From a bacterium (lineage in GTDB: Bacteria; Patescibacteriota; WWE3; 2-01-FULL-39-13; JAACPI01), in contig JAACPI010000001.1 of NCBI GenBank assembly GCA_009995545.1, positions 115,698-179,697 of the forward strand: a DNA stretch of 64,000 bases. Reading direction: 5' to 3'. Shown piece by piece: positions 1-30,668 of this stretch. Each line of letters starts with the position of its first letter. Within the stretch, counting starts at the first letter, position 1. Position numbers and translations under genes: made by a program. Below the pieces are notes generated by a model. The model searched no databases. It was not told where the DNA came from and saw only the letters and a list, made by a program, of their open reading frames with translations.

Positions 1-331
1 TACTTGAGCTTAAAGGCTCGAAACGAAGTATTAACATCAATTAAATACTTCCCTGCGAAACTATAAGTAAATCAAGCACCCTAACGTTAGGAGATATTAT
101 ACACATTAAATGTGTAGTGTAAAGTACTAAAATAACCTATAGTATTAAGGTGCTGCAGTTTAAAAACAGAATTCCTAACCTCTATCTAAACTTGGAGTGA
201 TTCCTCTGGTTACTACTGTGGGAGGAGTTAATTCTGTGTTCATTTACAAAACCCTTTGATATATCTAAAATAGCAACAGTAAAACTAACACCACATTAAC
301 GACCTCGCCCGTCAAAAATACATTACCTATT

Positions 332-1030
332 ATGATATTAGACAACGTAAACAACTTATCTAACGTATTAAATGTTCCAGTATACGCAATGGTTTTGCTG
401 GGCATTGTACCTACAATAGCTACAATAGTAAGTTTTGGTAGACACGTTTTAGGCTTTAAAAGTTTTAGTATTTATGTGCCTATTATTACCAGTATTGTTT
501 TTTTAGACTTAGGTTTAGTTTATGGCTTGGTAGTAGCCTCAATTGTGTTGTTTACTACTCTTATTACCCGAAGGTTACTGATTAAATTTAGAATGCACTA
601 CTTTGTGCGAATTTCTTTTATATACACAATTGTTTGCTTTTTGCTTTTTGGTGTTTTGGTTACTTTGTCGTTTTTTAGCTATGGTGAGCTTTTAAACTTT
701 AAACCTCTTTTTCCGGTAATTTTATTGGTTACCCTAGTAGAAGAGTATTTTAATAGTGTAGTAAAAGATGGGGAAAACAAAGTTATGCTGATGTTTTTAG
801 AAACCTTAGGTATAAGTACTTTAAGCTACTTTATAATTTCTAGTGCATTTTTTACTTCAGTAATTTTAAATAATTTATGGCTTTTGCTTTTGCTTTTTCC
901 TATAAACATAGCTTTAGCAGGGTGGGAAGGCCTGCGTTTTAGTGAGTTATCTAGGTTTAAATCGGTAATTTTAAACGAAATGAACGCAATAGAAGCGGAG
1001 GCAGATACTAAAAAGGAGAAAAAGAAATGA
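332..1030 (+). CDS. Polytopic (about 7 TM) integral membrane protein; likely membrane partner of the downstream ATP-grasp ligase
   Basis: 232-aa ORF with about 7 hydrophobic helices and a Lys/Glu-rich C-terminus. TGA stop overlaps the next ATG (ATGA), indicating translational coupling with the ATP-grasp gene. Resembles the 7TM partner of TIGR02291-type ligase systems (established family association; assignment by inference). Confidence 0.5.
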   Translation: MILDNVNNLSNVLNVPVYAMVLLGIVPTIATIVSFGRHVLGFKSFSIYVPIITSIVFLDLGLVYGLVVASIVLFTTLITRRLLIKFRMHYFVRISFIYTIVCFLLFGVLVTLSFFSYGELLNFKPLFPVILLVTLVEEYFNSVVKDGENKVMLMFLETLGISTLSYFIISSAFFTSVILNNLWLLLLLFPINIALAGWEGLRFSELSRFKSVILNEMNAIEAEADTKKEKKK

Positions 1031-2472
1031 ACCGACTTAGCTTATTTTTAAAAGCTAGTCAAAATGTACTGGGAATAAATGAACGCAATCTTTCTTTTAC
1101 CAAACGTTTTAATAGGGGAAAAAGTAGGTTGTTGGCCGATAATAAGTACAAAACTTATCGTTTACTTAGAAAAAACAAAATCCCAGTTCCCAAATCTTAC
1201 GCAATATTAAAAAAACAATCAGATTTAGCTGATTTTTCATTCGAAAGTATTCCCAGTACCTTTGTTGTTAAGCCAGCATTTGGCTTAGGGGGGACAGGAA
1301 ATTTACTAATTTTTAGTAGAAGTACTAAAACAGGGGATTGGATTGGTATTAATGGTAAAAGATATACCGAAAACGAACTAAAAAGTTTTTGCCAGGCTAT
1401 TCTAGAAAATGCTTTTGCTCTAGATTTTGCAAAAAAAGACGACTTTGTAATTATTCAAGAGAGAATAAAAATAACTAAATCTTTTAGGGCTATAAGCTAT
1501 CCTAAGGGGATACCAGATGTTCGAATAGTAGTGTACAAAAAAATTCCTCTAATGGCCATGTTAAGGCTTCCTACTAAAACAAGCGATGGTAAGGCTAATT
1601 TACATTTAGGGGGTATTGGTGTTGGAATTGACCTTGCAACTGGAATTACTACTTCTGCTGTTCATTACGATGAGCCTATTGAAAAACACCCAGATACTGG
1701 GGTTAATTTAAGTGGTTTTAGTATACCTATGTGGAAAGACATTTTAAAAATTGCCCAAAAGTCAGTCGATGTTTTGGGTTTAGACTTTGGTGCTGTAGAT
1801 GTTGTTTTAGATATTGATCAGGGTCCTATGATTTTAGAGCTTAATGCAAGGCCTGGTTTGTCTATTCAGCTTGCAAATCAGGAGGGCTTAAAGGGCAGAA
1901 TTAATCGCGTTAAGGGTATTAAACCCAGATCGCTACTCCATGCACGTAAAATAGGTACAAGCTTGTTTGGCGGTGAAATTGAGGACACTGTTTTTGACGT
2001 AACAGGGATGCAGGTCGCAGGTTTCATAGCTATGGCAAATTTTTATGGAATTGATCAAAAAGTAGCTAAAAGAATTAAAGTTAAAAATGACACCGGGGCT
2101 CTTTACAGTAGTATTGATAGGGATTTAGCTGATAAATTAGGTTTTGATAAAGCATTAAGTGATTTTGACGAATTAGAGCTTAATAAAACCTACCACGATA
2201 GGGTAGAGGCTTTGCAGCATAAAAAACAAATGGCCAAATTGGTTAAAGATCACCCTGAGATCATTGGTTTAACGGTGGTAAAGTCAGGAAATGGTATCAC
2301 AATTAGACCAAAAGTTAGGATTGGTATAGAGATGGAGGGAAAGAGAATTGAGGCCATTGTTAACATTGCTGATCGAAGTAACATGCTCTATAAAGGTATA
2401 ATTGGAAGAAGAACCTTGCGCAAAAACTTTTTAGTAGATAGCAATAAAATATTTAACAGGTACAAAGACTAA
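1027..2472 (+). CDS. RimK-related ATP-grasp ligase (alpha-L-glutamate ligase-related type) fused to a C-terminal retropepsin-like (DTGA) aspartyl-protease-like domain
   Basis: N-terminus 'VLGINERN...RLLADNKYKTYRLLRKNKIPVPKSYAIL' matches the RimK-like ATP-grasp N-terminal signature. ATP-grasp core motifs include 'ILELNARPG'. C-terminal 'RIKVKNDTGALYSSIDRDLADKLGF ... YKGIIGRRTLRK' has the D-T-G-A retropepsin motif typical of the 'putative ATP-dependent Zn protease' (PF05618-like) family. Confidence 0.6.
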   Translation: MNRLSLFLKASQNVLGINERNLSFTKRFNRGKSRLLADNKYKTYRLLRKNKIPVPKSYAILKKQSDLADFSFESIPSTFVVKPAFGLGGTGNLLIFSRSTKTGDWIGINGKRYTENELKSFCQAILENAFALDFAKKDDFVIIQERIKITKSFRAISYPKGIPDVRIVVYKKIPLMAMLRLPTKTSDGKANLHLGGIGVGIDLATGITTSAVHYDEPIEKHPDTGVNLSGFSIPMWKDILKIAQKSVDVLGLDFGAVDVVLDIDQGPMILELNARPGLSIQLANQEGLKGRINRVKGIKPRSLLHARKIGTSLFGGEIEDTVFDVTGMQVAGFIAMANFYGIDQKVAKRIKVKNDTGALYSSIDRDLADKLGFDKALSDFDELELNKTYHDRVEALQHKKQMAKLVKDHPEIIGLTVVKSGNGITIRPKVRIGIEMEGKRIEAIVNIADRSNMLYKGIIGRRTLRKNFLVDSNKIFNRYKD

Positions 2473-2588
2473 GATTACTAATTTCAAATTACTAACTGCA
2501 CTAATTGTTCTAAGTGAAGAACAGAAGAACTATTACTGAAAGAAAACAAAAAAGTGTAAATTAATAAGTATTAAGTTTCGACTATTCT

Positions 2589-3461
2589 ATGAAAATTGCA
2601 TATATAACATCTAAACCAAATATGAAAGAAACCTACAGGGTTAGAGAAGAAATGGAGGCTTTAGGTCATAGCGTAATTTTAATTAATCTGAGCGACAGCA
2701 GCTTTATATTTAATGAAAGTGGGGTTAAAAATACCCTAATTTCTAAAGAAACCTTTGACATTATCATCGCAAGAGATGTGTTGTCCTACATTAAGCATTA
2801 TGCAACTTTAGTAGAAACTTACCGTAAAAGAGGTATAAAAGTTTACGATAATGGTTTAACAGAGCTAAAATATGTAATAAACAAGCCTGTAGATTTAATG
2901 AAGTTAGCAAGTGTGGGGGTAGCTATACCTAAAACTTTTTTTACAAAAGATTTTGGAGACTATCGAAAAGCTGCAAAGTCGTTTGGTTTTCCTTTAATCT
3001 TTAAAAAAACCAATATGGGAAAAGGAGTAGGTATTTATTTAATGAAAAGCGAAGAAGAATTTGCCGCCTTTTTAGATCAAGAAATTAAAGATGAGGTAAA
3101 GGCAACTAGTTATTTAATGCAGGAGTTTATTGAGTACGAGCACGATTTGCGAGTTTTAGTAATAGGTGATCAAATGTTCGCAATGAAGAGAATTCCAAAA
3201 GAAGGGGATTTTAGAGCAAATTACTCTTTAGGCGGAACGGTAAAATTATTTGAAATAACACCTGAAATAAAAGAATTAGCAACAAAAGCTATAAATGCAG
3301 TCGGAATGAACTATGGAGGTGTAGATGTTTTAATAGACAAAAGTGGAAAACTCTATATTTTAGAGGTAAACCATAATGCAGGGTTTGCAGGAATGGAAGA
3401 AGCCACAGGCAAAAATATAGGAAAAATGTATGTAGAACATGCATTAAAAAGTGCCAAATAA
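2589..3461 (+). CDS. RimK-family ATP-grasp ligase (paralog 2)
   Basis: 290 aa. 'EFIEYEHDLRVLVIGDQMFAMKRIPKEGDFRANYSLGGTV...GGVDVLIDKSGKLYILEVNHNAGF' are classic RimK / glutamate-ligase ATP-grasp motifs. Confidence 0.75.
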   Translation: MKIAYITSKPNMKETYRVREEMEALGHSVILINLSDSSFIFNESGVKNTLISKETFDIIIARDVLSYIKHYATLVETYRKRGIKVYDNGLTELKYVINKPVDLMKLASVGVAIPKTFFTKDFGDYRKAAKSFGFPLIFKKTNMGKGVGIYLMKSEEEFAAFLDQEIKDEVKATSYLMQEFIEYEHDLRVLVIGDQMFAMKRIPKEGDFRANYSLGGTVKLFEITPEIKELATKAINAVGMNYGGVDVLIDKSGKLYILEVNHNAGFAGMEEATGKNIGKMYVEHALKSAK

Positions 3462-3510
3462 ATTTGTAATATTACTTTTCATTTTGCATTTTAAATTTTA
3501 AACTACTCTT

Positions 3511-4443
3511 ATGAACATATTAATCGCTGGTTTAGTTAAAGGTTCACAAGCCACAAGGTTGATTGAAGAAGGAACAAAATTAGGACATGCCGTTCATGGC
3601 ATTTTCGGGTCTCATTTAGTTAGCAGATTTAATGGTAATTTTGTAGATATTGAATTTAGAGATCACCCTTTAAAGCCCCAAGACTACGATATTGTATATT
3701 TAAAGCTAACTGGAAAAACTAAGTTCGACTGGTACCTGGTAGCAAGGCATTTACACGATAAGTTTGGTTTACAGGTTGTGCCCGATAAATACGTATTAGA
3801 CGATTACACCGTTTTTTATTCCCCTCAGGCAGATTATTTAAAACAGGCCGAAGATGCTTCTTTAAAATACCCAAAATCAGTTATCTTTAAGAATGCTGCA
3901 AGTTTAAAAAACGCCATTAAAGGGTTTGAATTTCCTTTAATCTTAAAGCTGTCTGGAGGAAGTTTTGACAGAAAGGGTAGGGGAGTAAAGTTAGTTAGTA
4001 GTTTGGGGGAGCTAAAAGCTTTAATTAAGGAACACAGAGAAGACTCCGAAAGATTTACCTTACGTGAGTTTATACCTAATAATGGAGATTTAAGGGTTTT
4101 TACGGTGGGTTATAAAGCAATAGGTGCTATGAAGCGAACACCTAAAGAAGGGGATTTTAGAAGCAACATAAGCCAAGGAGGAGACGGGGAAGAGTTTGAT
4201 TTGTCTACCAGACCCGATATTGTTCAAATGGCAGAAAAACTTAGCAAAATTACTCGAACGGAGGTTGCAGGTGTGGATATTATGTTACATAAAGAAACGG
4301 GTGAGCCCTATATTTTAGAAATTAACCCCGGTCCGCAATTCGAAGGGTTAGAGAAATACACAAAGGTAAATGCTGCAAAGGAAATAATTAGATATTTTGA
4401 GAGTAAGGTTAAGGGGTTAGGTTACCTTCCTGAGAGTTCATAA
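3511..4443 (+). CDS. RimK-family ATP-grasp ligase (paralog 3)
   Basis: 310 aa. 'LREFIPNNGDLRVFTVGYKAIGAMKRTPKEGDFRSNISQGGDGE...AGVDIMLHKETGEPYILEINPGPQFEG'. Confidence 0.75.
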   Translation: MNILIAGLVKGSQATRLIEEGTKLGHAVHGIFGSHLVSRFNGNFVDIEFRDHPLKPQDYDIVYLKLTGKTKFDWYLVARHLHDKFGLQVVPDKYVLDDYTVFYSPQADYLKQAEDASLKYPKSVIFKNAASLKNAIKGFEFPLILKLSGGSFDRKGRGVKLVSSLGELKALIKEHREDSERFTLREFIPNNGDLRVFTVGYKAIGAMKRTPKEGDFRSNISQGGDGEEFDLSTRPDIVQMAEKLSKITRTEVAGVDIMLHKETGEPYILEINPGPQFEGLEKYTKVNAAKEIIRYFESKVKGLGYLPESS

Positions 4444-4773
4444 TCTTACTTTATAGTATTTTTGAATTTACCTAAATTTTCCTCTTTTAAGGGTGATAAC
4501 TCGCTTTTTGACAACATAGATAAAATTACCCCAAACTTTAATACTTGAATTTCCAATATGGATAAAAAAATTGTACAGAATTTTTTATTTATACCTTGAA
4601 ATCACCCGAGATCTATCCGTATTAAAATGGCTCTCATTAGGGGTTTATAGGGTTTATTGAACAAAAAATTTAAGAAGTAAATAAAATTGTTTGGCAATAA
4701 TCTAGGTGGTTTAAGTAAAGGGTTTTTAGATGGTTTAAAACTTATAATCGGTTAATTTGATATAATTTAAAAT

Positions 4774-6217
4774 ATGACAGAAAAAAGAGAAAAAATTGTT
4801 TGCATAGTTGATAATTTCGCGGAAGTACCAATGCCTGAGGTTGGGGATGTTAAGCTACAAGGACGATTAGATGCTCTTTTACAAGAACAGGATTACGCCC
4901 AAATTTATGAGTTGGGGTCTACTAATCCCAGTGCCTACCCCTATGCAATAGTTTTAGCTTTTAATTTAGGCTACTTGGAATCTATATCTGGTCACCTAAA
5001 GTTCTTTTATCACAATGATATAGAACCTTCCTCGCTCACTGTTAAAAACGGAGGTGATTTAGCTGTGGTTGCTGCTGCTTATACCTCTTTTTATACTAGG
5101 TGGGGTAATAGAGACAACCATTGGTGCAATATGGGGGTTTTAACAGGTCCACGTATCCCCATTAATGAAGATTACTTTCCTAGAATTAATTTTGGTTCTG
5201 AAAAACTTGATCAAGAAATATTAGAACTACTGCAAAAGGTTAATGGGGTTACCTACCAACAAGCCCTGGATCCGGAATACCTTACTTTTTATAAACAACT
5301 GTCTTTTCTAAGTAGAAAACGTGCAATTTACCACGGGGTTTATCCCCAAGGGAAAACACGAGAGGAAGGAGTGGACTACGTATTAACCCATGCAGTTTGT
5401 GAGGCTTTAATTGCCCAGAGTCAACTCGAAGACCCCACTTTACAGGGTTATCGAAAAGATTTTGTTACAGGTCGTGCAAGAAGAGCCTACACCCTTGCCC
5501 AAAAAACTATGGAGAGTATCTATGGTTTTAATATACCTGATTTAGAGAATGGGGGTTTAGATCGTTTAGGAGAATCCCGTAGAATAAAGTATTTGGCTTA
5601 TTATCAGGAGGTAATTCAGCGACTTTTAGCTTATGACCCTGAAGATAGCCGGGTAATATCTAGGGATATGAGCAGCTGGTACCTTGATAAATCTACAAAA
5701 TGGAGGGATTTCTCAAGGGCAGTCAGGCCGTTAGCTACCTCTCTAGGTCCTTTTTGGTTTTATGCTGAGGATAATGTGCCAAAAGAGGTTAAGGATAAAG
5801 GGGGGGGGGTATCGTAAACGCAGAGAAGCCTATAACGATTGGTTTATGAACCGAATGAGGAAAGAGAAATCAGAATCTAGGAGAGAAGAGCTGCTTGCAA
5901 ATGCAAAAGGAGATATTGCAGTTTGGAATTCCCGATTTGCAGGCAAAGTTCCCTTCTTTATTCGAGGGGACAACGGTGAGCTAGAGGTTACTTTTGAAAT
6001 AGACTTACGCGAAGCGGAACTGTGCCTTGGTTCACCGCAGGAGCTGGGGAGAATTCAGGCCACGGTTAGAACATCCTTTGCTATTGATTCTTCTAGAAAA
6101 TCCAAGCTTGCCAAAATTTTACACCCTGACGCTCTAGGAATACCCGCCGAACTTGAGGAATCCTACGCTTTAGAACGAAAACTAAAGGAGGAGATTTTTA
6201 AAATCCGTAATATTTGA
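4774..6217 (+). pseudogene. GC-rich hypothetical gene split by a +1 frameshift at a G10 homopolymer (frame 1 ORF 4774-5817, frame 2 ORF 5762-6217); phase-variable or degraded
   Basis: The two overlapping ORFs change frame exactly at G10 (5800-5809). Local GC is about 42-46% against a window background of about 34%. No recognisable domain. Confidence 0.5.
5800..5809. repeat. G10 homopolymeric tract (slipped-strand candidate)
   Basis: Ten consecutive G at the frameshift point of the 4774-6217 gene. Confidence 0.9.
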
Positions 6218-6384
6218 TATTAGGTGCAAAGACCTCTATTTAGGGCCTTTATCGGAATATTTCCGCCAACAATTTTCATTAGGGTTTATATTTTGTAATT
6301 GCTTGGGTACAACTTGCTTTAAGCTGATTTAGCACCTAACAAGGTTGCAAATCACCCTAAGAGTAGTATATAATCACCCCTGTT

Positions 6385-6699
6385 ATGAAAGACAAGATAC
6401 ACCCAAAAGTTAATAAAAAAGCTAAAGTTACTTGTAACTGTGGCCACACCTTTACAACTACCAGTGTTTTAGAAGAAATTAGGGTAGAAGTTTGTAGTCA
6501 ATGTCACCCCTTTTATACAGGTGTTGAGAAGTTTATAGACACAGAGGGTAGAGTAGACAGCTTTAAGAGAAAACAAGATGTCGCAAAAGAAAGACAAAAA
6601 GTTATTTTGCAAAAATTAAAAGTAAAAAAGACTAAAGAAAAAGAACAAAAACAAGGCCCCTTGTCCTTAAAAGATTTACTTAAACAGGCGGGTAAATAA
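6385..6699 (+). CDS. rpmE: 50S ribosomal protein L31 with Lys-rich C-terminal extension
   Basis: 'MKDKIHPKV...[13 protein letters not shown]...[13 protein letters not shown]' is the L31 zinc-ribbon signature. Confidence 0.85.
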
Positions 6700-7587: not shown

Positions 7588-9066
7588 GTGAGAAAAGATG
7601 TACAAGAAATTATTGATCGGTATGAAAGCTACCACCCAAACCCCCGTTCACATATTATAAAAAGTGCATACAAGTTAGCTGAAATTTTATATTTTGGTGA
7701 AAAGCGAGTTAATGAAGAACCTTGGCTAGATCATGCAATCAGAATTTCCAATTATTTATCAAAACTTGGATTAGACTCCATTACTATATCAGCAGGATTA
7801 CTTCACGACTCCTTAGAGTTTGGTTTAACCTATAAAGAGATTGAACAAGAGGTTGACCCTGATGTAGCCGAGTTAGTGCAAAACATTATTACTATAAAGG
7901 AGATTAGAGGGAAGGGAGTTGTTAATGGGTCCGACGGGGGCCAAGTAGAGTATTTGAGAAGATTAATTATTTCTACTGCAAAAGATGTTAGGGCTGTAAT
8001 AATAAGATTAGTAGAAAAACTGGATTCTCTTAAAACTGTGGAGTATTTAGAGGGACAAAAAAAACAATTGGTTTTAGATAACGCTTTAAATTTATATGCC
8101 CCCCTGGCAGAACAAATTGGTTTAAATAACCTTAAGTCAGATATAGAAGATGCCGCTTTTGAAAGACTCGACCCAGAAACTTTTAAAAAACTTCAGCATA
8201 CATTGGACACACACCCAGTAACTAACGACAAATATATTAAAGAGGTTACTGAAATTATTAAAGATATTATTCAATCAGAAAAAATAGATCTAGTGGACTA
8301 TTATGGTCGAAAAAAGCGACCTTACTCACTTAATAAAAAAATCATTCGGTACATGCAAAAATTTAATTATAGTGAGGCATCCGCTATAGAGAGTATCCAC
8401 GATAAAGTAGCCTTTAGAATAATTTTAAATTCTGTGGAAGATTGTTATAAAGTATTAGATCTGCTCCATAATAGTTTTAAATACATCCCTTCGGAATTTG
8501 ATGACTATATCTCTAAGCCTAAACCAAATGGATATAAAAGTTTGCAGACTTCTTTAGAATTACTAAACGGTCATTTTGCTGAGGTGCAAATAAGAACTTT
8601 AGATATGCACCGCCACAACGAATACGGTATGGCTAGTCATATCATTTACAAGTTAAATGACGCAAAATCAGATGCTCCTGCAAGTGAAAAGATAGAGGTG
8701 CTAAAAAGATTAATATCTTGGAAAGATGGTATTTTAACAACAGATAAGAGTGGGGTTAATATTGAGGAGATAGAAAAATACCTTTTTGTTTTTACTCCAA
8801 AGGGTGATCTATTTGAATTACCTAAAAATTCTACAGCCTTAGACTTTGCATATATACTACACTCCGATCTTGGACATAAGGCCGTTAGAGCAAAAATAAA
8901 TGGGGTACTAAAGCCCCTTAATGTTATACCAAAAAATGGCGACGTAATAGAAATTATTTGTGACATTAAAAAAAAGGGTCCTAGCAGGGATCACTTAGAA
9001 TTTGTAGTGAGTAAGGAGGCCCGGTTAAATATCAAAAAATGGCTACGTAGAGATTTAAAGATATAA
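7588..9066 (+). CDS. rel: Bifunctional (p)ppGpp synthetase/hydrolase, RelA/SpoT family (HD + synthetase + TGS; no ACT domain)
   Basis: HD motif 'AGLLHDSLE', synthetase motif 'YKSLQTSL...EVQIRTLDMHRHNEYGMASHIIYK', TGS-like 'FVFTPKGDLFELPKNSTALDFAYILHSDLGHK'. GTG start. Confidence 0.85.
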   Translation: MRKDVQEIIDRYESYHPNPRSHIIKSAYKLAEILYFGEKRVNEEPWLDHAIRISNYLSKLGLDSITISAGLLHDSLEFGLTYKEIEQEVDPDVAELVQNIITIKEIRGKGVVNGSDGGQVEYLRRLIISTAKDVRAVIIRLVEKLDSLKTVEYLEGQKKQLVLDNALNLYAPLAEQIGLNNLKSDIEDAAFERLDPETFKKLQHTLDTHPVTNDKYIKEVTEIIKDIIQSEKIDLVDYYGRKKRPYSLNKKIIRYMQKFNYSEASAIESIHDKVAFRIILNSVEDCYKVLDLLHNSFKYIPSEFDDYISKPKPNGYKSLQTSLELLNGHFAEVQIRTLDMHRHNEYGMASHIIYKLNDAKSDAPASEKIEVLKRLISWKDGILTTDKSGVNIEEIEKYLFVFTPKGDLFELPKNSTALDFAYILHSDLGHKAVRAKINGVLKPLNVIPKNGDVIEIICDIKKKGPSRDHLEFVVSKEARLNIKKWLRRDLKI

Positions 9067-17444: not shown

Positions 17445-18437
17445 ATGAAAACAGCTATACCGAGCGCTCAAGAGCTATTACAGGCAGGAGTACATTTTGG
17501 ACATCAAACTAGAAGATGGCATCCAAAAATGGATAAATACATCCATAAAAAGCATTCTGGGATTCACGTTATCGACTTATTTAAAACTAAAGAATTACTA
17601 GAGGAAGCTGCCAAATTTGCTTACGAAACAGCAAGAACAGGAAAAAAGGTAATTTTTGTAGGTACTAAAGAGCAGGTAAAAGAAGTTGTAGAAATAGAGG
17701 CAAAAAGATCTGGGGCTTTATTTGTAACCGAAAGATGGTTTGGCGGTACCCTGACCAATTTTGAAGGGATTAAAGATAACAGACAAAAAATGTTAGATTT
17801 AAAAGCCAAAATGGAAGATGGAACTTTTAAAGATCTTACTAAAAGAGAAAGATTATTAATATCTAGGGATATAGAGAAACTAGACTTAAGCTACGGTGGT
17901 TTAGTAGGTTTACATGAACAACCCGGGGTACTTTTTATAGTAGACCCTAGAAAAGAAAAAACAGCTGTAAAAGAGGCTTTATTAAAGAATGTACCTATTA
18001 TTGCTTTAATAGATACAAACACGGATCCTACTAAAATAGATTATCCAATTCCTGGAAACGACGATGCCATAAAAAGTGTTGCTTTAATAACAAGAGTTAT
18101 TGCAGATGCAATTTTAGAAGGCTATAAAGACTTTGCTAGTGCAGAAAAAACTAAAGTAGTTGTCGAAGAAGGATCTGCTTATCCAGAGCTTGCTGGTAGA
18201 GATACCGAAAAAAAGGCTGCAACTAAAGAAAAAAACGAGCCTAAAGTAGTAGCTAAGGCCGATAAAAAAGAAAAATTACTTAAAGATTCCGATTTATCTG
18301 TAAAAACGGTAGATGCATTGAAGGCCGCAAAAATTTCTAACAGATCACAACTAGATAAAATGAGCGATGAGGAACTCGAGGCTGTTAAAGGTATAAGTAC
18401 AGCAGATATTAAAGAAATTAAACACTGGTTACAATAG
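17445..18437 (+). CDS. rpsB: 30S ribosomal protein S2 with about 80-aa Lys/Glu-rich C-terminal extension
   Basis: 'LLQAGVHFGHQTRRWHPKM' and 'ALIDTNTDP' signatures; 330 aa. Confidence 0.9.
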   Translation: MKTAIPSAQELLQAGVHFGHQTRRWHPKMDKYIHKKHSGIHVIDLFKTKELLEEAAKFAYETARTGKKVIFVGTKEQVKEVVEIEAKRSGALFVTERWFGGTLTNFEGIKDNRQKMLDLKAKMEDGTFKDLTKRERLLISRDIEKLDLSYGGLVGLHEQPGVLFIVDPRKEKTAVKEALLKNVPIIALIDTNTDPTKIDYPIPGNDDAIKSVALITRVIADAILEGYKDFASAEKTKVVVEEGSAYPELAGRDTEKKAATKEKNEPKVVAKADKKEKLLKDSDLSVKTVDALKAAKISNRSQLDKMSDEELEAVKGISTADIKEIKHWLQ

Positions 18438-28875: not shown

Positions 28876-29751
28876 TTGTTCCCCAGTACTATCCCTATGA
28901 AAACTTTAGATAATGCTTTAAATAGGTTAAAAAGTGTGGATCAATCCATTGAAAAGAGATACAAGTTTCTGTTTGTAACGGGAATTTTTTTAGCATTACA
29001 AACCATATTCATACTTTTTTATAGTGACTATGATTTGATTCAAAAGGGGATTGTCTCACAACTAATTATTTTTTTTACGGTTTCCATAATAGTGTTCTTA
29101 TATCCTATAGTATATCAAATTACTTTATCTAACTTGCCTAAAATAATTTCTGTGCCCTTTGGTTACGTTATAAGTAGTTTTTTGTTACTAAGATTTTTTC
29201 CCAATTTAAATATCTTATTTAAGCTATCTTTCTCAATCTTTTCTACTTTTATATTTTATTATCTAGTGTTGGCTACAAATGTTTTTCTAGTTGTAGAAGA
29301 GCGGGGGAGAAATATACCTTTAGTACGGCCGGCTAAAACTGTTTTTTTGTTTATCGAGATCATAACCTTGTTTTTCGTTCTAACTAATACCTTTAAAATG
29401 ATTCTTCCGGGTGCTTTTTTGGAGCTGTCATTTATTTTTCACATGTTTGTTGTTTTTATTTCTACTTACTTTTTTGCACTTCAATATTGGTGGTCACAGA
29501 ACTTGGAGCAGGAGCTAAACAGTTTAGTAGGTAACGAGTCTTTTGTAATTGCGCTCGTAATGGGAATATCAGCTCTCACTATTTCCTTTTTTCCTTTAGA
29601 AAGCTTTTTTAAGGCATTAGCTTTAACAACTGTTTATTATATTTTTATAAGCTTTTTTCAAGCAGTGGCATTGCATAGGGTATATAAAGGTTTATATATA
29701 GAATTCTTATCTATTATTCTAGCTGTAGTAGCGTTTTTGCTTATCTCCTAA
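28876..29751 (+). CDS. Polytopic membrane protein, hypothetical
   Basis: 291 aa with at least 7 hydrophobic helices. Confidence 0.5.
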   Translation: MFPSTIPMKTLDNALNRLKSVDQSIEKRYKFLFVTGIFLALQTIFILFYSDYDLIQKGIVSQLIIFFTVSIIVFLYPIVYQITLSNLPKIISVPFGYVISSFLLLRFFPNLNILFKLSFSIFSTFIFYYLVLATNVFLVVEERGRNIPLVRPAKTVFLFIEIITLFFVLTNTFKMILPGAFLELSFIFHMFVVFISTYFFALQYWWSQNLEQELNSLVGNESFVIALVMGISALTISFFPLESFFKALALTTVYYIFISFFQAVALHRVYKGLYIEFLSIILAVVAFLLIS

Positions 29752-29762
29752 GTAGGGAAGTA

Positions 29763-29771
29763 GGGGGGGGG
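29763..29771. repeat. G9 homopolymeric tract
   Basis: Nine consecutive G immediately 3' of the 28876-29751 gene; rare in this AT-rich sequence. Confidence 0.9.
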
Positions 29772-30213
29772 ATTTAGACCTATAGTAAATACCCTATAGT
29801 AATTATTGCAATATATAACGACATATTATCAACAAATTGTATTCTTGTCAGGTGACACTAGTGCCTGTATAAAAGCTTTTTATATGTGGATAACTGTATC
29901 TCACAAACAAACAAAAAATTTGATCTGGTCGCAGAGTAGGGGGCTATGTGATAATGTCATATAACTATAGGTCTAAATTGTCATAGTTTATATCTTGTAG
30001 TATTGTCATAGTTTTTGTAGGACCCTTGCTAAACTACTTTATTACTCCTATAAATGCTATTTTTATGGATGCAGTATTTATTTGATAAATTTTAAAAAAC
30101 AAATAAAAACAAATAAATAGCTTTTTTTAGTTAGTAGGTAGCTTGGTAGGTCCCCTGATTTTTATTTGACTATAAATTGTGACAATACCTTTTGTCATCT
30201 AAAAAGCTATTTA

Positions 30214-30241
30214 ATGTCGTTAAATATACAGATTACGACAA
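30214..30241. promoter_or_regulatory. Candidate dif-like Xer recombination site (11-6-11 imperfect palindrome with TATACA/TGTATA spacer)
   Basis: ATGTCGTTAAA-TATACA-GATTACGACAA, whose reverse-complement spacer TGTATA equals the canonical dif spacer. The arms are only weakly similar to consensus dif. Sits between convergent gene blocks, about 4 kb from the Xer-like recombinase. Confidence 0.2.
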
Positions 30242-30599
30242 CTAATTTCTTTCTTATAAATAGTAAAAGTATTCCCTACTTTGGGTTTTTATACTTATTT
30301 TAAATCTGCTCGTGTATCCTTTTAATTATGTCTGCTTCCCTATTTTGTTTTTGAGTTCCCTATTTTAAGTGAATTCCCTTGTTATCCTTTTTGAATTCGA
30401 AAATATTACGAAATTAAATTACGAACTTTACGTATTTACTTAGTTCGTATATATTGTCGTTTGTGTCTAAGTGTAAGTTTACCTATCTAAAGCTGCTTTT
30501 GGTGTAATGTTGCTGTAACTAAACATCAATATGGTCAATAAATGCTTTAGGTAAAGCAATAAATCAAAATAATCGTTTTAAGGGGTTTTAAATAATACA

Positions 30600-30625
30600 A
30601 GGTGTTGGAACACCTTTATTTTTTA
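30600..30625 (+). terminator. Rho-independent terminator-like hairpin plus T-tract (orientation favours a + strand transcript)
   Basis: AGGTGTT-GG-AACACCT, a perfect 7-bp stem, followed by TTATTTTTTAT. The nearest + strand CDS ends about 850 bp upstream. The hairpin is about 45 nt from the stop of the minus-strand gene 30669-31364, but its minus-strand flank is less T-rich. Confidence 0.5.
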
Positions 30626-30668
30626 TATTTCTCTGCACTAGAAGCTTAAAACTACCCAAGGCGATAAT

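What the first reader, a model, noticed from the sequence alone, without database searches (positions are those of the whole stretch)
4774..6217. GC-rich foreign gene split precisely at a G10 tract: phase-variable or decaying horizontally acquired gene next to the ligase cluster
Two overlapping ORFs (frame 1 to 5817; frame 2 from 5762) switch frame exactly at a G10 run (5800-5809). Removing one G gives a continuous protein of about 480 aa. Local GC (about 42-46%) is well above the window background. Long poly-G is strongly disfavoured in AT-rich genomes and is the classic substrate for slipped-strand phase variation. It could equally be a sequencing or assembly artefact at a homopolymer.
Basis: seen in the sequence. 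Interest (0 to 1): 0.5.

Follow-up and report, generated by a model that had tools for sequence, protein, structure and literature searches.

The report
Unstable poly-G tract splitting an orphan gene
A run of ten G's really does break one 480-codon gene of unknown function in an uncultivated small-genome bacterium, and the run differs in length (8 to 12 G) between assemblies of the same near-clonal population, so it is a genuine slippage-prone site in a gene that is mostly switched off and probably being lost.

Summary
G10 lies at 5800-5809. ORF 4774-5817 (347 aa) and ORF 5762-6217 change frame exactly there, and G9 gives one 480-aa protein.

It is not a one-off assembly error. More than 40 contigs from JGI, ENA, Logan and NCBI carry the same locus at over 99.9% identity. 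The 20 loci fetched here that span the tract carry G8 (1), G9 (2), G10 (12), G11 (4) or G12 (1). A8 and T8 tracts in the same loci never vary. The only other long G run in the window (G9, 29763-29771, intergenic) is also polymorphic (G8/G9).

The tract is therefore a real slipped-strand hotspot. Adaptive phase variation is not shown. In-frame lengths (G9, G12) occur only on short contigs, about 3x coverage where coverage is stated. All contigs of 90 kb or more are out of frame (G10 or G11). About a third of contigs carry a second, independent frameshift (T insertion at 5439-5441).

The protein is a strict orphan, with no homologue among 1.84 billion representatives and no Pfam, NCBIfam, PHROGs, PADLOC or PDB match. 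GC is 41% against 34% (about 2.3 sd above other ORFs), so foreign origin is possible but unproven.

Best reading: a dispensable lineage-specific gene, mostly OFF and decaying at a hypermutable tract. This is a known kind of feature and of modest interest.

The parts
4774..6217 (+). One original protein-coding gene of 480 codons, an orphan of unknown function. In this window it is interrupted by a +1 frameshift at the G tract.
   Evidence: The intact allele P0012 was found on L006/L007. GC1>GC2>GC3 periodicity is coding-like. There is no homologue anywhere.
5800..5809 (+). Poly-G tract (G10 here), encoding Gly-Gly-Gly at about 72% of the gene. It is length-polymorphic between assemblies (G8, G9, G10, G11, G12).
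4774..5817 (+). Upstream reading frame as it stands with G10: a 347-aa truncated product ending ...DKGGGVS*. NCBI annotates it as hypothetical protein GW755_00565.
5810..6217 (+). C-terminal 135 codons in frame 2, joined to the N-terminal part only with G9 or G12. The mechanical ORF starts at ATG 5762. Gene callers chose 5762, 5774, 5846 or 5855 as the start. No good Shine-Dalgarno sequence precedes any of them (read by eye).
5439..5441 (+). TTT that is TTTT in about a third of the contigs of the same population (L011-L020, L033). This is an independent frameshift that truncates the product to 252 aa whatever the G-tract length.
   Evidence: (P0006).
4642..4737 (+). Four GGTTTA repeats on the + strand in the 330-nt upstream spacer, the densest cluster in the window. 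They may be a regulator-binding site. TATAAT hexamers at 4743-4748 and 4761-4766 lie just before the ATG. Function is not tested.
   Evidence: The hexamers were read directly from the sequence and were not listed by the promoter scan.

Best explanation
This is a single lineage-specific gene of 480 codons that contains a genuinely unstable poly-G tract. The steps marked shown are read from the data and the rest are inferred.

1. Inferred: slipped-strand mispairing during replication adds or removes G's.
2. Shown in silico: G9 and G12 give the full protein; G7, G10 and G13 stop two codons after the tract; G8 and G11 stop after 12 alternative codons.
3. Shown: the sampled population is dominated by out-of-frame lengths (G10, then G11), and a sub-lineage has gained a second, tract-independent frameshift.
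4. Inferred: the gene is dispensable under the sampled conditions and is drifting from 'switchable' towards a fixed pseudogene.
For: 1. The same G10 split occurs in 21 contigs up to 275 kb from four independent sources.
2. Loci that are otherwise 99.9-100% identical over about 11.8 kb carry G8, G9, G10, G11 or G12. G10 and G11 are each found on contigs of 90 kb or more (L001, L003, L008, L011).
3. Internal controls do not vary. A8 tracts at 8057 and 8968 and T8 at 29069 show no indel in the same loci.
4. The only other long G tract in the window (29763-29771) is also polymorphic. Its G8 allele is linked to SNP 26792 G>A in two assemblies, which points to a heritable strain difference rather than read noise.
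5. An intact 480-aa allele exists in the same population.
6. A second frameshift, the T insertion at 5439-5441, is present in 13 contigs. Of the three recurrent polymorphisms seen in 11.8 kb, two are frameshifts in this gene.
7. Several contigs end in or within about 130 nt of the tract, and L018 ends exactly at 5809. This is what assemblers do at heterogeneous sites.
8. Coding-like codon-position GC and highly improbable stop-free lengths show it is or was a real gene.
Against: - No reads were available. Within-sample heterogeneity and per-read error at the tract were not measured.
- The extreme lengths (G8, G9, G12) come only from contigs of 5-7 kb. The ENA copy of the G9 contig has about 3x coverage, so some of these could be consensus errors.
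- Two cluster members show base changes just after the tract: P0014 (...GGGES*) and P0009 (compensating indels). This indicates some technical noise around poly-G.
- Many contigs are re-assemblies of the same samples by different pipelines, so contig counts overstate independent observations.
- With no homologues, selection on the gene cannot be measured.
- A truncated 347-aa product might still be functional, in which case 'OFF' would be the wrong word.
Confidence: 0.55

Rival explanations
1. This is an adaptive contingency locus, that is, true phase variation. The tract is kept by selection so that the population always contains cells with and without the C-terminal domain (or with three alternative C-termini). 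That would give a tiny-genome episymbiont a form of bet-hedging.
For: - The anatomy is the same as in classical poly-G contingency genes. Five tract lengths are observed in one near-clonal population.
- All three reading-frame outcomes are represented.
- Both long G tracts in the window are polymorphic and stand out from the run-length spectrum.
- A tract late in the gene that switches the C-terminus is a known variant, described in Helicobacter canadensis (title and abstract of PMC2823697, listed).
Against: - In-frame lengths are seen only on short contigs (about 3x coverage where stated) and never on contigs of 90 kb or more.
- A non-reversible frameshift (T3 to T4) has spread to about a third of contigs. 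This is not expected for a gene kept by selection.
- The product has no signal peptide or membrane segment that I could see, and no similarity to the usual phase-variable classes such as surface proteins, restriction-modification systems or glycosyltransferases.
- Neither the tract nor the gene can be shown to be conserved, because there are no relatives.
Confidence: 0.25
2. This is a sequencing or assembly artefact. The true gene is intact (G9), and Illumina or PCR errors at the homopolymer give wrong consensus lengths.
For: - Homopolymers of 10 or more are error-prone in PCR-amplified Illumina libraries (general knowledge).
- Odd variants directly after the tract (P0009, P0014) look technical.
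- The rarest lengths sit on short contigs, with about 3x coverage where stated.
Against: - G10 is the consensus in 21 contigs, including ones of 167-275 kb made by at least four pipelines. A systematic +1 error in all of them is implausible.
- G11 is also on 91-kb and 183-kb contigs.
- The A8 and T8 control tracts never vary.
- The tract-2 allele is linked to a SNP.
- The T insertion at a T3 site cannot be a homopolymer artefact, and it shows that the gene tolerates disruption.
Confidence: 0.08
3. This is programmed recoding. G10 is the functional state, and RNA-polymerase slippage or +1/-2 ribosomal slippage on the G run makes a fixed ratio of a short (347 aa) and a long (480 aa) isoform, as in dnaX-type genes.
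For: - A homopolymer allows perfect re-pairing after a slip.
- G10 is the commonest state.
- Purine-rich SD-like GAGG and AAGGA motifs lie 4-15 nt upstream (by eye).
- Some leaky rescue is likely on first principles.
Against: - Tract length is not fixed (8-12).
- There is no stimulatory downstream structure: fold z = +0.95.
- Documented transcriptional slippage sites are mostly A/T runs (my own knowledge).
- A third of contigs carry an upstream frameshift that would abolish both isoforms.
Confidence: 0.07
4. These are two genuine adjacent genes that happen to overlap at a G run.
For: NCBI and other gene callers annotate two ORFs, GW755_00565 and GW755_00570.
Against: - Gene callers disagree on the start of the second ORF (four different starts). 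None has a convincing ribosome-binding site (by eye).
- The downstream frame is open from exactly the tract.
- A fused 480-aa allele exists in the same population.
Confidence: 0.05

Closest known systems
Poly-G/poly-C contingency (phase-variable) genes of Neisseria, Campylobacter, Helicobacter and Haemophilus, e.g. lgt, pgtA, hmbR
   Same: An intragenic G homopolymer of about 8-12. Single-nucleotide length changes move the downstream frame. Several lengths coexist in one clonal population. The long tracts are outliers in an AT-rich genome.
   Different: The organism is an uncultivated, probably CPR/Patescibacteria bacterium. The tract lies at 72% of the gene rather than near the 5' end. The product is an orphan, apparently cytoplasmic protein. 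In-frame alleles are rare and poorly supported. A second, irreversible frameshift is common. Reversibility and phenotype are untested.
C-terminal sequence switching at 3'-proximal homopolymeric tracts (Helicobacter canadensis; PMC2823697, title and abstract seen)
   Same: The tract sits late in the ORF, so length changes swap or remove the C-terminal part instead of abolishing the protein. Three alternative C-termini are predicted.
   Different: Two of the three 'alternative C-termini' here are just 2 and 12 residues before a stop. No evidence shows that the truncated forms are functional.
Homopolymer-frameshifted pseudogenes in reduced genomes, with partial rescue by transcriptional slippage (endosymbiont poly-A tracts; my own knowledge)
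   Same: Small AT-rich genome. A gene is disrupted at a homopolymer. Further disabling mutations accumulate.
   Different: Here the tract is poly-G, not poly-A, and the intact allele is still detectable in the population. Slippage rescue is untested.

Membership tests
SSR-mediated phase-variable (contingency) gene | Homopolymeric tract of about 7-8 nt or more inside the ORF or promoter | tested here: met
   G10 at 5800-5809 lies inside the reading frame.
SSR-mediated phase-variable (contingency) gene | Length changes of 1 nt switch the reading frame between full-length and truncated products | tested here: met
   G9 and G12 give 480 and 481 aa. G10 gives 347 aa. G8 and G11 give 357 and 358 aa.
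SSR-mediated phase-variable (contingency) gene | Tract-length heterogeneity within one strain or population | tested here: met
   Lengths of 8-12 occur among assemblies that are otherwise 99.9-100% identical. Read-level, within-sample heterogeneity could not be tested.
SSR-mediated phase-variable (contingency) gene | High-frequency, reversible ON/OFF switching | not testable with these tools
   This needs read pile-ups, time series or culture.
SSR-mediated phase-variable (contingency) gene | Gene otherwise intact and kept by selection, with the ON state at appreciable frequency | tested here: not met
   In-frame lengths occur only on 5-7 kb contigs (about 3x coverage for the ENA G9 contig). 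A T-insertion frameshift is in 13 contigs. All contigs of 90 kb or more are out of frame.
SSR-mediated phase-variable (contingency) gene | Tract and gene conserved in related strains or species | not testable with these tools
   No homologue exists in 5.8 billion clusters or 1.84 billion representatives. The nearest genomes share only 55% identity in the neighbouring ligase and lack the gene.
Pseudogene (recent, frameshifted) | Reading frame disrupted relative to an intact reference allele | tested here: met
   The window allele (G10) was compared with the intact P0012 (G9) from the same population.
Pseudogene (recent, frameshifted) | More than one independent disabling lesion | tested here: met
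   Tract frameshifts occur, and a T3-to-T4 insertion occurs at 5439-5441 in other contigs. The window itself carries only the tract lesion.
Pseudogene (recent, frameshifted) | No functional product made | not testable with these tools
   This needs transcript or protein data. The 347-aa truncated product could still be active.
Programmed frameshift / transcriptional-slippage gene (dnaX-, prfB-like) | Fixed, conserved slippery tract | tested here: not met
   The length varies from 8 to 12.
Programmed frameshift / transcriptional-slippage gene (dnaX-, prfB-like) | Stimulatory downstream RNA structure | tested here: not met
   Folding 5806-5900 gives -12.7 kcal/mol, z = +0.95 against shuffles.
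Horizontally acquired gene / genomic islet | Atypical composition | tested here: inconclusive
   GC is 0.411 against 0.341 (sd 0.030). GC3 is 0.33 against 0.268 (sd 0.033). It is the highest in the window but only about 2 sd out.
Horizontally acquired gene / genomic islet | Identifiable donor homologue, mobile-element marks, or an empty site in relatives | tested here: not met
   No homologue was found in any library, including phage and viral sets. Only weak AT-rich flanking repeats are present. Relatives share no synteny beyond the ligase cassette.

The most novel reading that the evidence does not exclude
The two poly-G tracts are part of a set of true contingency loci in a CPR/Patescibacteria bacterium. 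On this reading, an ultra-small, probably episymbiotic organism uses slipped-strand switching to vary a lineage-specific protein, here toggling its C-terminal domain, and an intergenic element. My literature searches found no report of SSR phase variation in this radiation.
Probability: 0.2. Interest if true: 0.55.

Novelty: new member of a known kind. Interest (0 to 1): 0.3.

Why it matters
- Annotation: the two 'hypothetical proteins' deposited for this locus (GW755_00565 and GW755_00570) are one frameshifted gene.
- Method: comparing public re-assemblies of one population can stand in for read pile-ups when asking whether a homopolymer is really variable.
- Biology: if the tracts turn out to be selected switches, they would be a rare example of contingency loci in uncultivated CPR bacteria.

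On present evidence the gene looks dispensable and its function is unknown, so the significance is modest.

Tried and rejected
**Searches for the function of the repaired protein, all empty**
- Pfam at E<=0.01 gave nothing. At E<=10 the only hit was an insignificant Csm6-HEPN match, E 0.087.
- NCBIfam, PHROGs, PADLOC and PDB sequences (best E 0.16) gave nothing.
- The word-indexed search of 5.8 billion clusters and full HMMER against 1.84 billion representatives returned only the protein itself.
- tblastn against phage genomes and relative searches in metagenome and viral contigs gave nothing.

**Structure prediction**
- AlphaFold2 without an alignment gave pLDDT 37 for the whole protein and 45 for the C-terminal 135 aa.
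- No fold search was run, because the models are meaningless at that confidence.

**Scans and look-ups that failed**
- An exact-pattern scan of metagenome contigs for the tract flank found nothing. That collection evidently does not hold these samples.
- Look-ups of P0009 and of the TTG-start ORF 28876-29751 were not on record.
- A first Python alignment timed out and was replaced by BLAST.

**Ideas considered and dropped**
- Mobile-element insertion: only weak AT-rich inverted repeats flank the gene (27 nt, 74% complementary), and there is no integrase or tRNA nearby.
- The gene as a conserved substrate or partner of the ATP-grasp cassette: rejected, because relatives with the cassette lack it.
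- A four-gamete argument for recurrent tract mutation: not used as proof. Two ordinary sites (3669 and the T insertion) also show all four combinations, which may reflect chimeric consensus of mixed strains.
- Identifying the source study by run accession: no paper found.

Full report
**1. The observation**

The sequence shows ten consecutive G's at 5800-5809. An ORF in frame 1 runs 4774-5817 (347 aa) and ends two codons after the tract. An ORF in frame 2 runs 5762-6217. Removing one G joins them into a 480-aa product.

The tract is not a chance feature.
- In this 64-kb, 34% GC window, the expected number of G or C runs of 10 or more is 0.003 under a zero-order model and 0.03 under a first-order model.
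- G runs number 110, 32 and 3 for lengths 4, 5 and 6, and none for lengths 7 and 8. There is then a single run of 9 (29763-29771) and this run of 10. No C run exceeds 6.
- The 135 stop-free codons that follow the tract, in exactly the frame reached by a one-base slip, have P about 3e-4. The 342 upstream codons have P about 2e-10.
- Codon-position GC (0.52, 0.38, 0.33) follows the GC1>GC2>GC3 pattern of the window's real genes.

So this is, or recently was, one protein-coding gene.

The gene is 41.1% GC against 34.3% for the window. It is the highest of 56 ORFs but only about 2.3 sd above their mean. GC3 is about 1.9 sd above the mean.

**2. Context**

The window is ordinary bacterial chromosome.
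- Upstream lies a four-gene cassette: a 7TM_transglut membrane protein, an ATPgrasp_ST ligase with a Zn_protease-like tail, and two RimK-type ATP-grasp ligases (332-4443).
- Downstream lie rpmE (L31), a hypothetical gene, RelA/SpoT, EamA, an MBL-fold protein and DnaB.
- Further on are gyrB/gyrA, S2, TGT and a type IV pilus cluster.

NCBI holds the locus as 'bacterium', with locus tags GW755_00565 and GW755_00570. The nearest genomes among 185,579 species representatives share only 28-55% identity in the adjacent ligase. Most of them are labelled Dojkabacteria, Woesebacteria, Shapirobacteria or Saccharibacteria MAGs. The organism is therefore probably a poorly sampled CPR/Patescibacteria lineage. 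This is an inference from best hits, not a phylogeny.

**3. Is the frameshift real? Evidence from other assemblies**

The protein cluster contains 16 different gene-caller products from this one locus. I fetched 23 loci that cover the gene region, from JGI, ENA and Logan assemblies, and compared them base by base with the window.

Over about 11.8 kb they are 99.84-100% identical to the window. Only three sites vary recurrently:
- a SNP at 3669;
- the G tract;
- a one-base T insertion in the TTT at 5439-5441.

| Tract length | Loci | Notes |
|---|---|---|
| G8 | L034 | 6.2-kb contig |
| G9 | L006, L007 | 5-kb contigs; the ENA copy has about 3x coverage |
| G10 | L001-L005, L012-L014, L016, L017, L032, L033 | includes contigs of 167, 169, 225 and 275 kb; the exact 347-aa product is on 21 contigs |
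| G11 | L008-L011 | includes contigs of 91 and 183 kb |
| G12 | L015 | 6.9-kb contig |

Three lines of evidence argue against technical noise.
- A8 tracts at 8057 and 8968 and a T8 tract at 29069, covered by the same loci, show no indel at all.
- The window's other long G tract (29763-29771) is G9 in one assembly and G8 in two others. The G8 allele goes with SNP 26792 G>A, as expected for a heritable strain difference.
- Several contigs stop inside or within about 130 nt of tract 1, and L018 stops exactly at 5809. Assemblers do this at heterogeneous sites.

Together these results make a simple assembly error very unlikely. They show that long G tracts in this genome are genuinely unstable.

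There are caveats.
- I had no reads.
- Many contigs are re-assemblies of the same samples.
- The most extreme lengths sit on short contigs. The stated coverages are about 3x (ENA G9 contig L006; G11 contig L010).
- Two cluster members carry odd changes right after the tract (P0014, P0009). These look like post-homopolymer sequencing noise.

**4. Switch or decay?**

The in-silico series gives three outcomes.

| Tract length | Product |
|---|---|
| G9 / G12 | full length, 480 / 481 aa |
| G7 / G10 / G13 | ...GGGVS*; G10 gives 347 aa |
| G8 / G11 | ...IVNAEKPITIGL*; 357 / 358 aa |

All three outcomes are observed, which is the anatomy of a poly-G contingency gene. Three observations nevertheless point to relaxed selection.
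- Every contig of 90 kb or more is out of frame (G10 or G11). The in-frame lengths occur only on contigs of 5-7 kb, and the one G12 contig also carries the second frameshift.
- Thirteen contigs carry a T3-to-T4 insertion 360 bp upstream of the tract, against 27 contigs for the T3 products P0001, P0007 and P0012 combined. The insertion truncates the protein at 252 aa whatever the tract does. A T3 run is not a slippage hotspot, so this is an ordinary, effectively irreversible mutation that has spread. It is mostly found with G10.
- The tract lies at 72% of the gene, so 'OFF' still leaves a 347-aa product.

I therefore favour a dispensable gene that is mostly off and accumulating secondary damage. 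An actively maintained switch remains the main rival.

Programmed recoding is unlikely. The tract length is not fixed, and no structure follows it (z = +0.95). Some leaky rescue by polymerase or ribosome slippage on a G10 run is still plausible in principle.

**5. What the protein is**

Unknown. The repaired 480-aa sequence has no significant match in any of the following:
- Pfam, NCBIfam, PHROGs or PADLOC;
- PDB sequences;
- the 5.8-billion-cluster protein set;
- a full HMMER scan of 1.84 billion representatives, which found only itself;
- phage genomes;
- metagenome or viral contigs.

Single-sequence AlphaFold models are unusable (pLDDT 37 and 45). They suggest only a helical N-terminal part, a basic helix after the tract, and a small strand-plus-helix C-terminal part. 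By eye there is no signal peptide or membrane segment.

Relatives that share the 7TM/ATP-grasp cassette have no counterpart of this gene. They also lack L31 next door, so there is no syntenic 'empty site' to compare. No repeats, integrase or tRNA mark an insertion. 'Horizontally acquired' therefore rests only on orphan status and about 7 points of extra GC, and it remains unproven.

**6. Comparison with known systems, and novelty**

Mechanistically this is the familiar slipped-strand frameshifting at a poly-G tract, as in the Neisseria, Campylobacter and Helicobacter contingency genes listed. Its late position resembles the C-terminal switching described for Helicobacter canadensis (PMC2823697; title and abstract only).

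For membership it meets three criteria: tract present, frame-switch logic, and length heterogeneity. It fails the criterion that the gene is otherwise intact with the ON state well represented. Reversibility and conservation could not be tested.

My two literature searches returned no report of SSR phase variation in CPR/Patescibacteria. The host lineage would be the only unusual aspect. I class it as a new member of a known kind.

**7. Verdict**

- Interest is 0.3.
- The most novel reading not excluded is true contingency loci in a CPR bacterium. I give it about 0.2 probability and about 0.55 interest if true.

Noticed in passing
window 29752-30668 (tract at 29763-29771; inverted repeat arms 29772-29786 and 29964-29978): This is a 917-nt gene-free stretch between two convergent genes. 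It opens with the window's second long G tract (G9 here; G8 in L029 and L031, linked to SNP 26792 G>A). A perfect 15-bp inverted repeat, ATTTAGACCTATAGT / ACTATAGGTCTAAAT, follows immediately, with arms 177 nt apart. Short direct repeats are also present (ATTGTCATAGTTT x2, CCTATAGTAA.TA x2). It could be an invertible segment, the ends of a miniature mobile element, or a structured RNA. There is no Rfam match, the RNA fold is only mildly better than shuffles (z = -1.9), and no inversion is seen in three other assemblies.
   Followed up: partly
window 4642-4737: Four GGTTTA/GGGTTTA repeats lie on the + strand within 95 nt of the long (330 nt) spacer upstream of the gene. This is the densest cluster in the window. 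GGGTTTA is also over-represented window-wide (33 against 18 expected), with 5 copies between 4641 and 6288. It may be a regulator-binding array.
   Followed up: partly
window 332-4443; also L021, L023, L024, L025: A conserved four-gene cassette: 7TM_transglut membrane protein, ATPgrasp_ST ligase with a Zn_protease-like C-terminus, and two RimK-type ATP-grasp ligases. It recurs in several CPR MAGs. Both here and in L021 it sits beside ribosomal-protein genes (L31 here; L7/L12 and L10 in L021). Its substrate is unknown.
   Followed up: partly
window 3669: A T/C SNP in the second RimK-type ligase gene is the only recurrent point polymorphism in about 11.8 kb across about 20 assemblies. It occurs in all four combinations with the T3/T4 indel 1.8 kb away. 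This implies either recombination within the population or chimeric consensus of mixed strains.
   Followed up: no
window 17445-18437: The ribosomal protein S2 gene carries a C-terminal extension that matches the RNA polymerase alpha-subunit C-terminal domain (PF03118, E 3.7e-07). This is an unusual fusion.
   Followed up: no
window 4761-4776 and 6345-6387: TATAAT hexamers lie 7-10 nt upstream of the start codons of both the orphan gene and rpmE, with no Shine-Dalgarno sequence between them. This suggests leaderless or near-leaderless transcripts in this organism (partly read by eye).
   Followed up: no
window 1-64000: No tRNA gene and no Rfam family at gathering threshold were found in 64 kb of chromosome.
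   Followed up: no
L021 (CAYRCU010000015.1), L023 (CAYQZQ010000002.1): Public MAG records titled 'uncultured Gammaproteobacteria' and 'uncultured Pseudomonadales' carry the closest and third-closest relatives of the CPR-type ligase cassette (55% and 41% identity in RimK2). Their taxonomic labels look doubtful.
   Followed up: no
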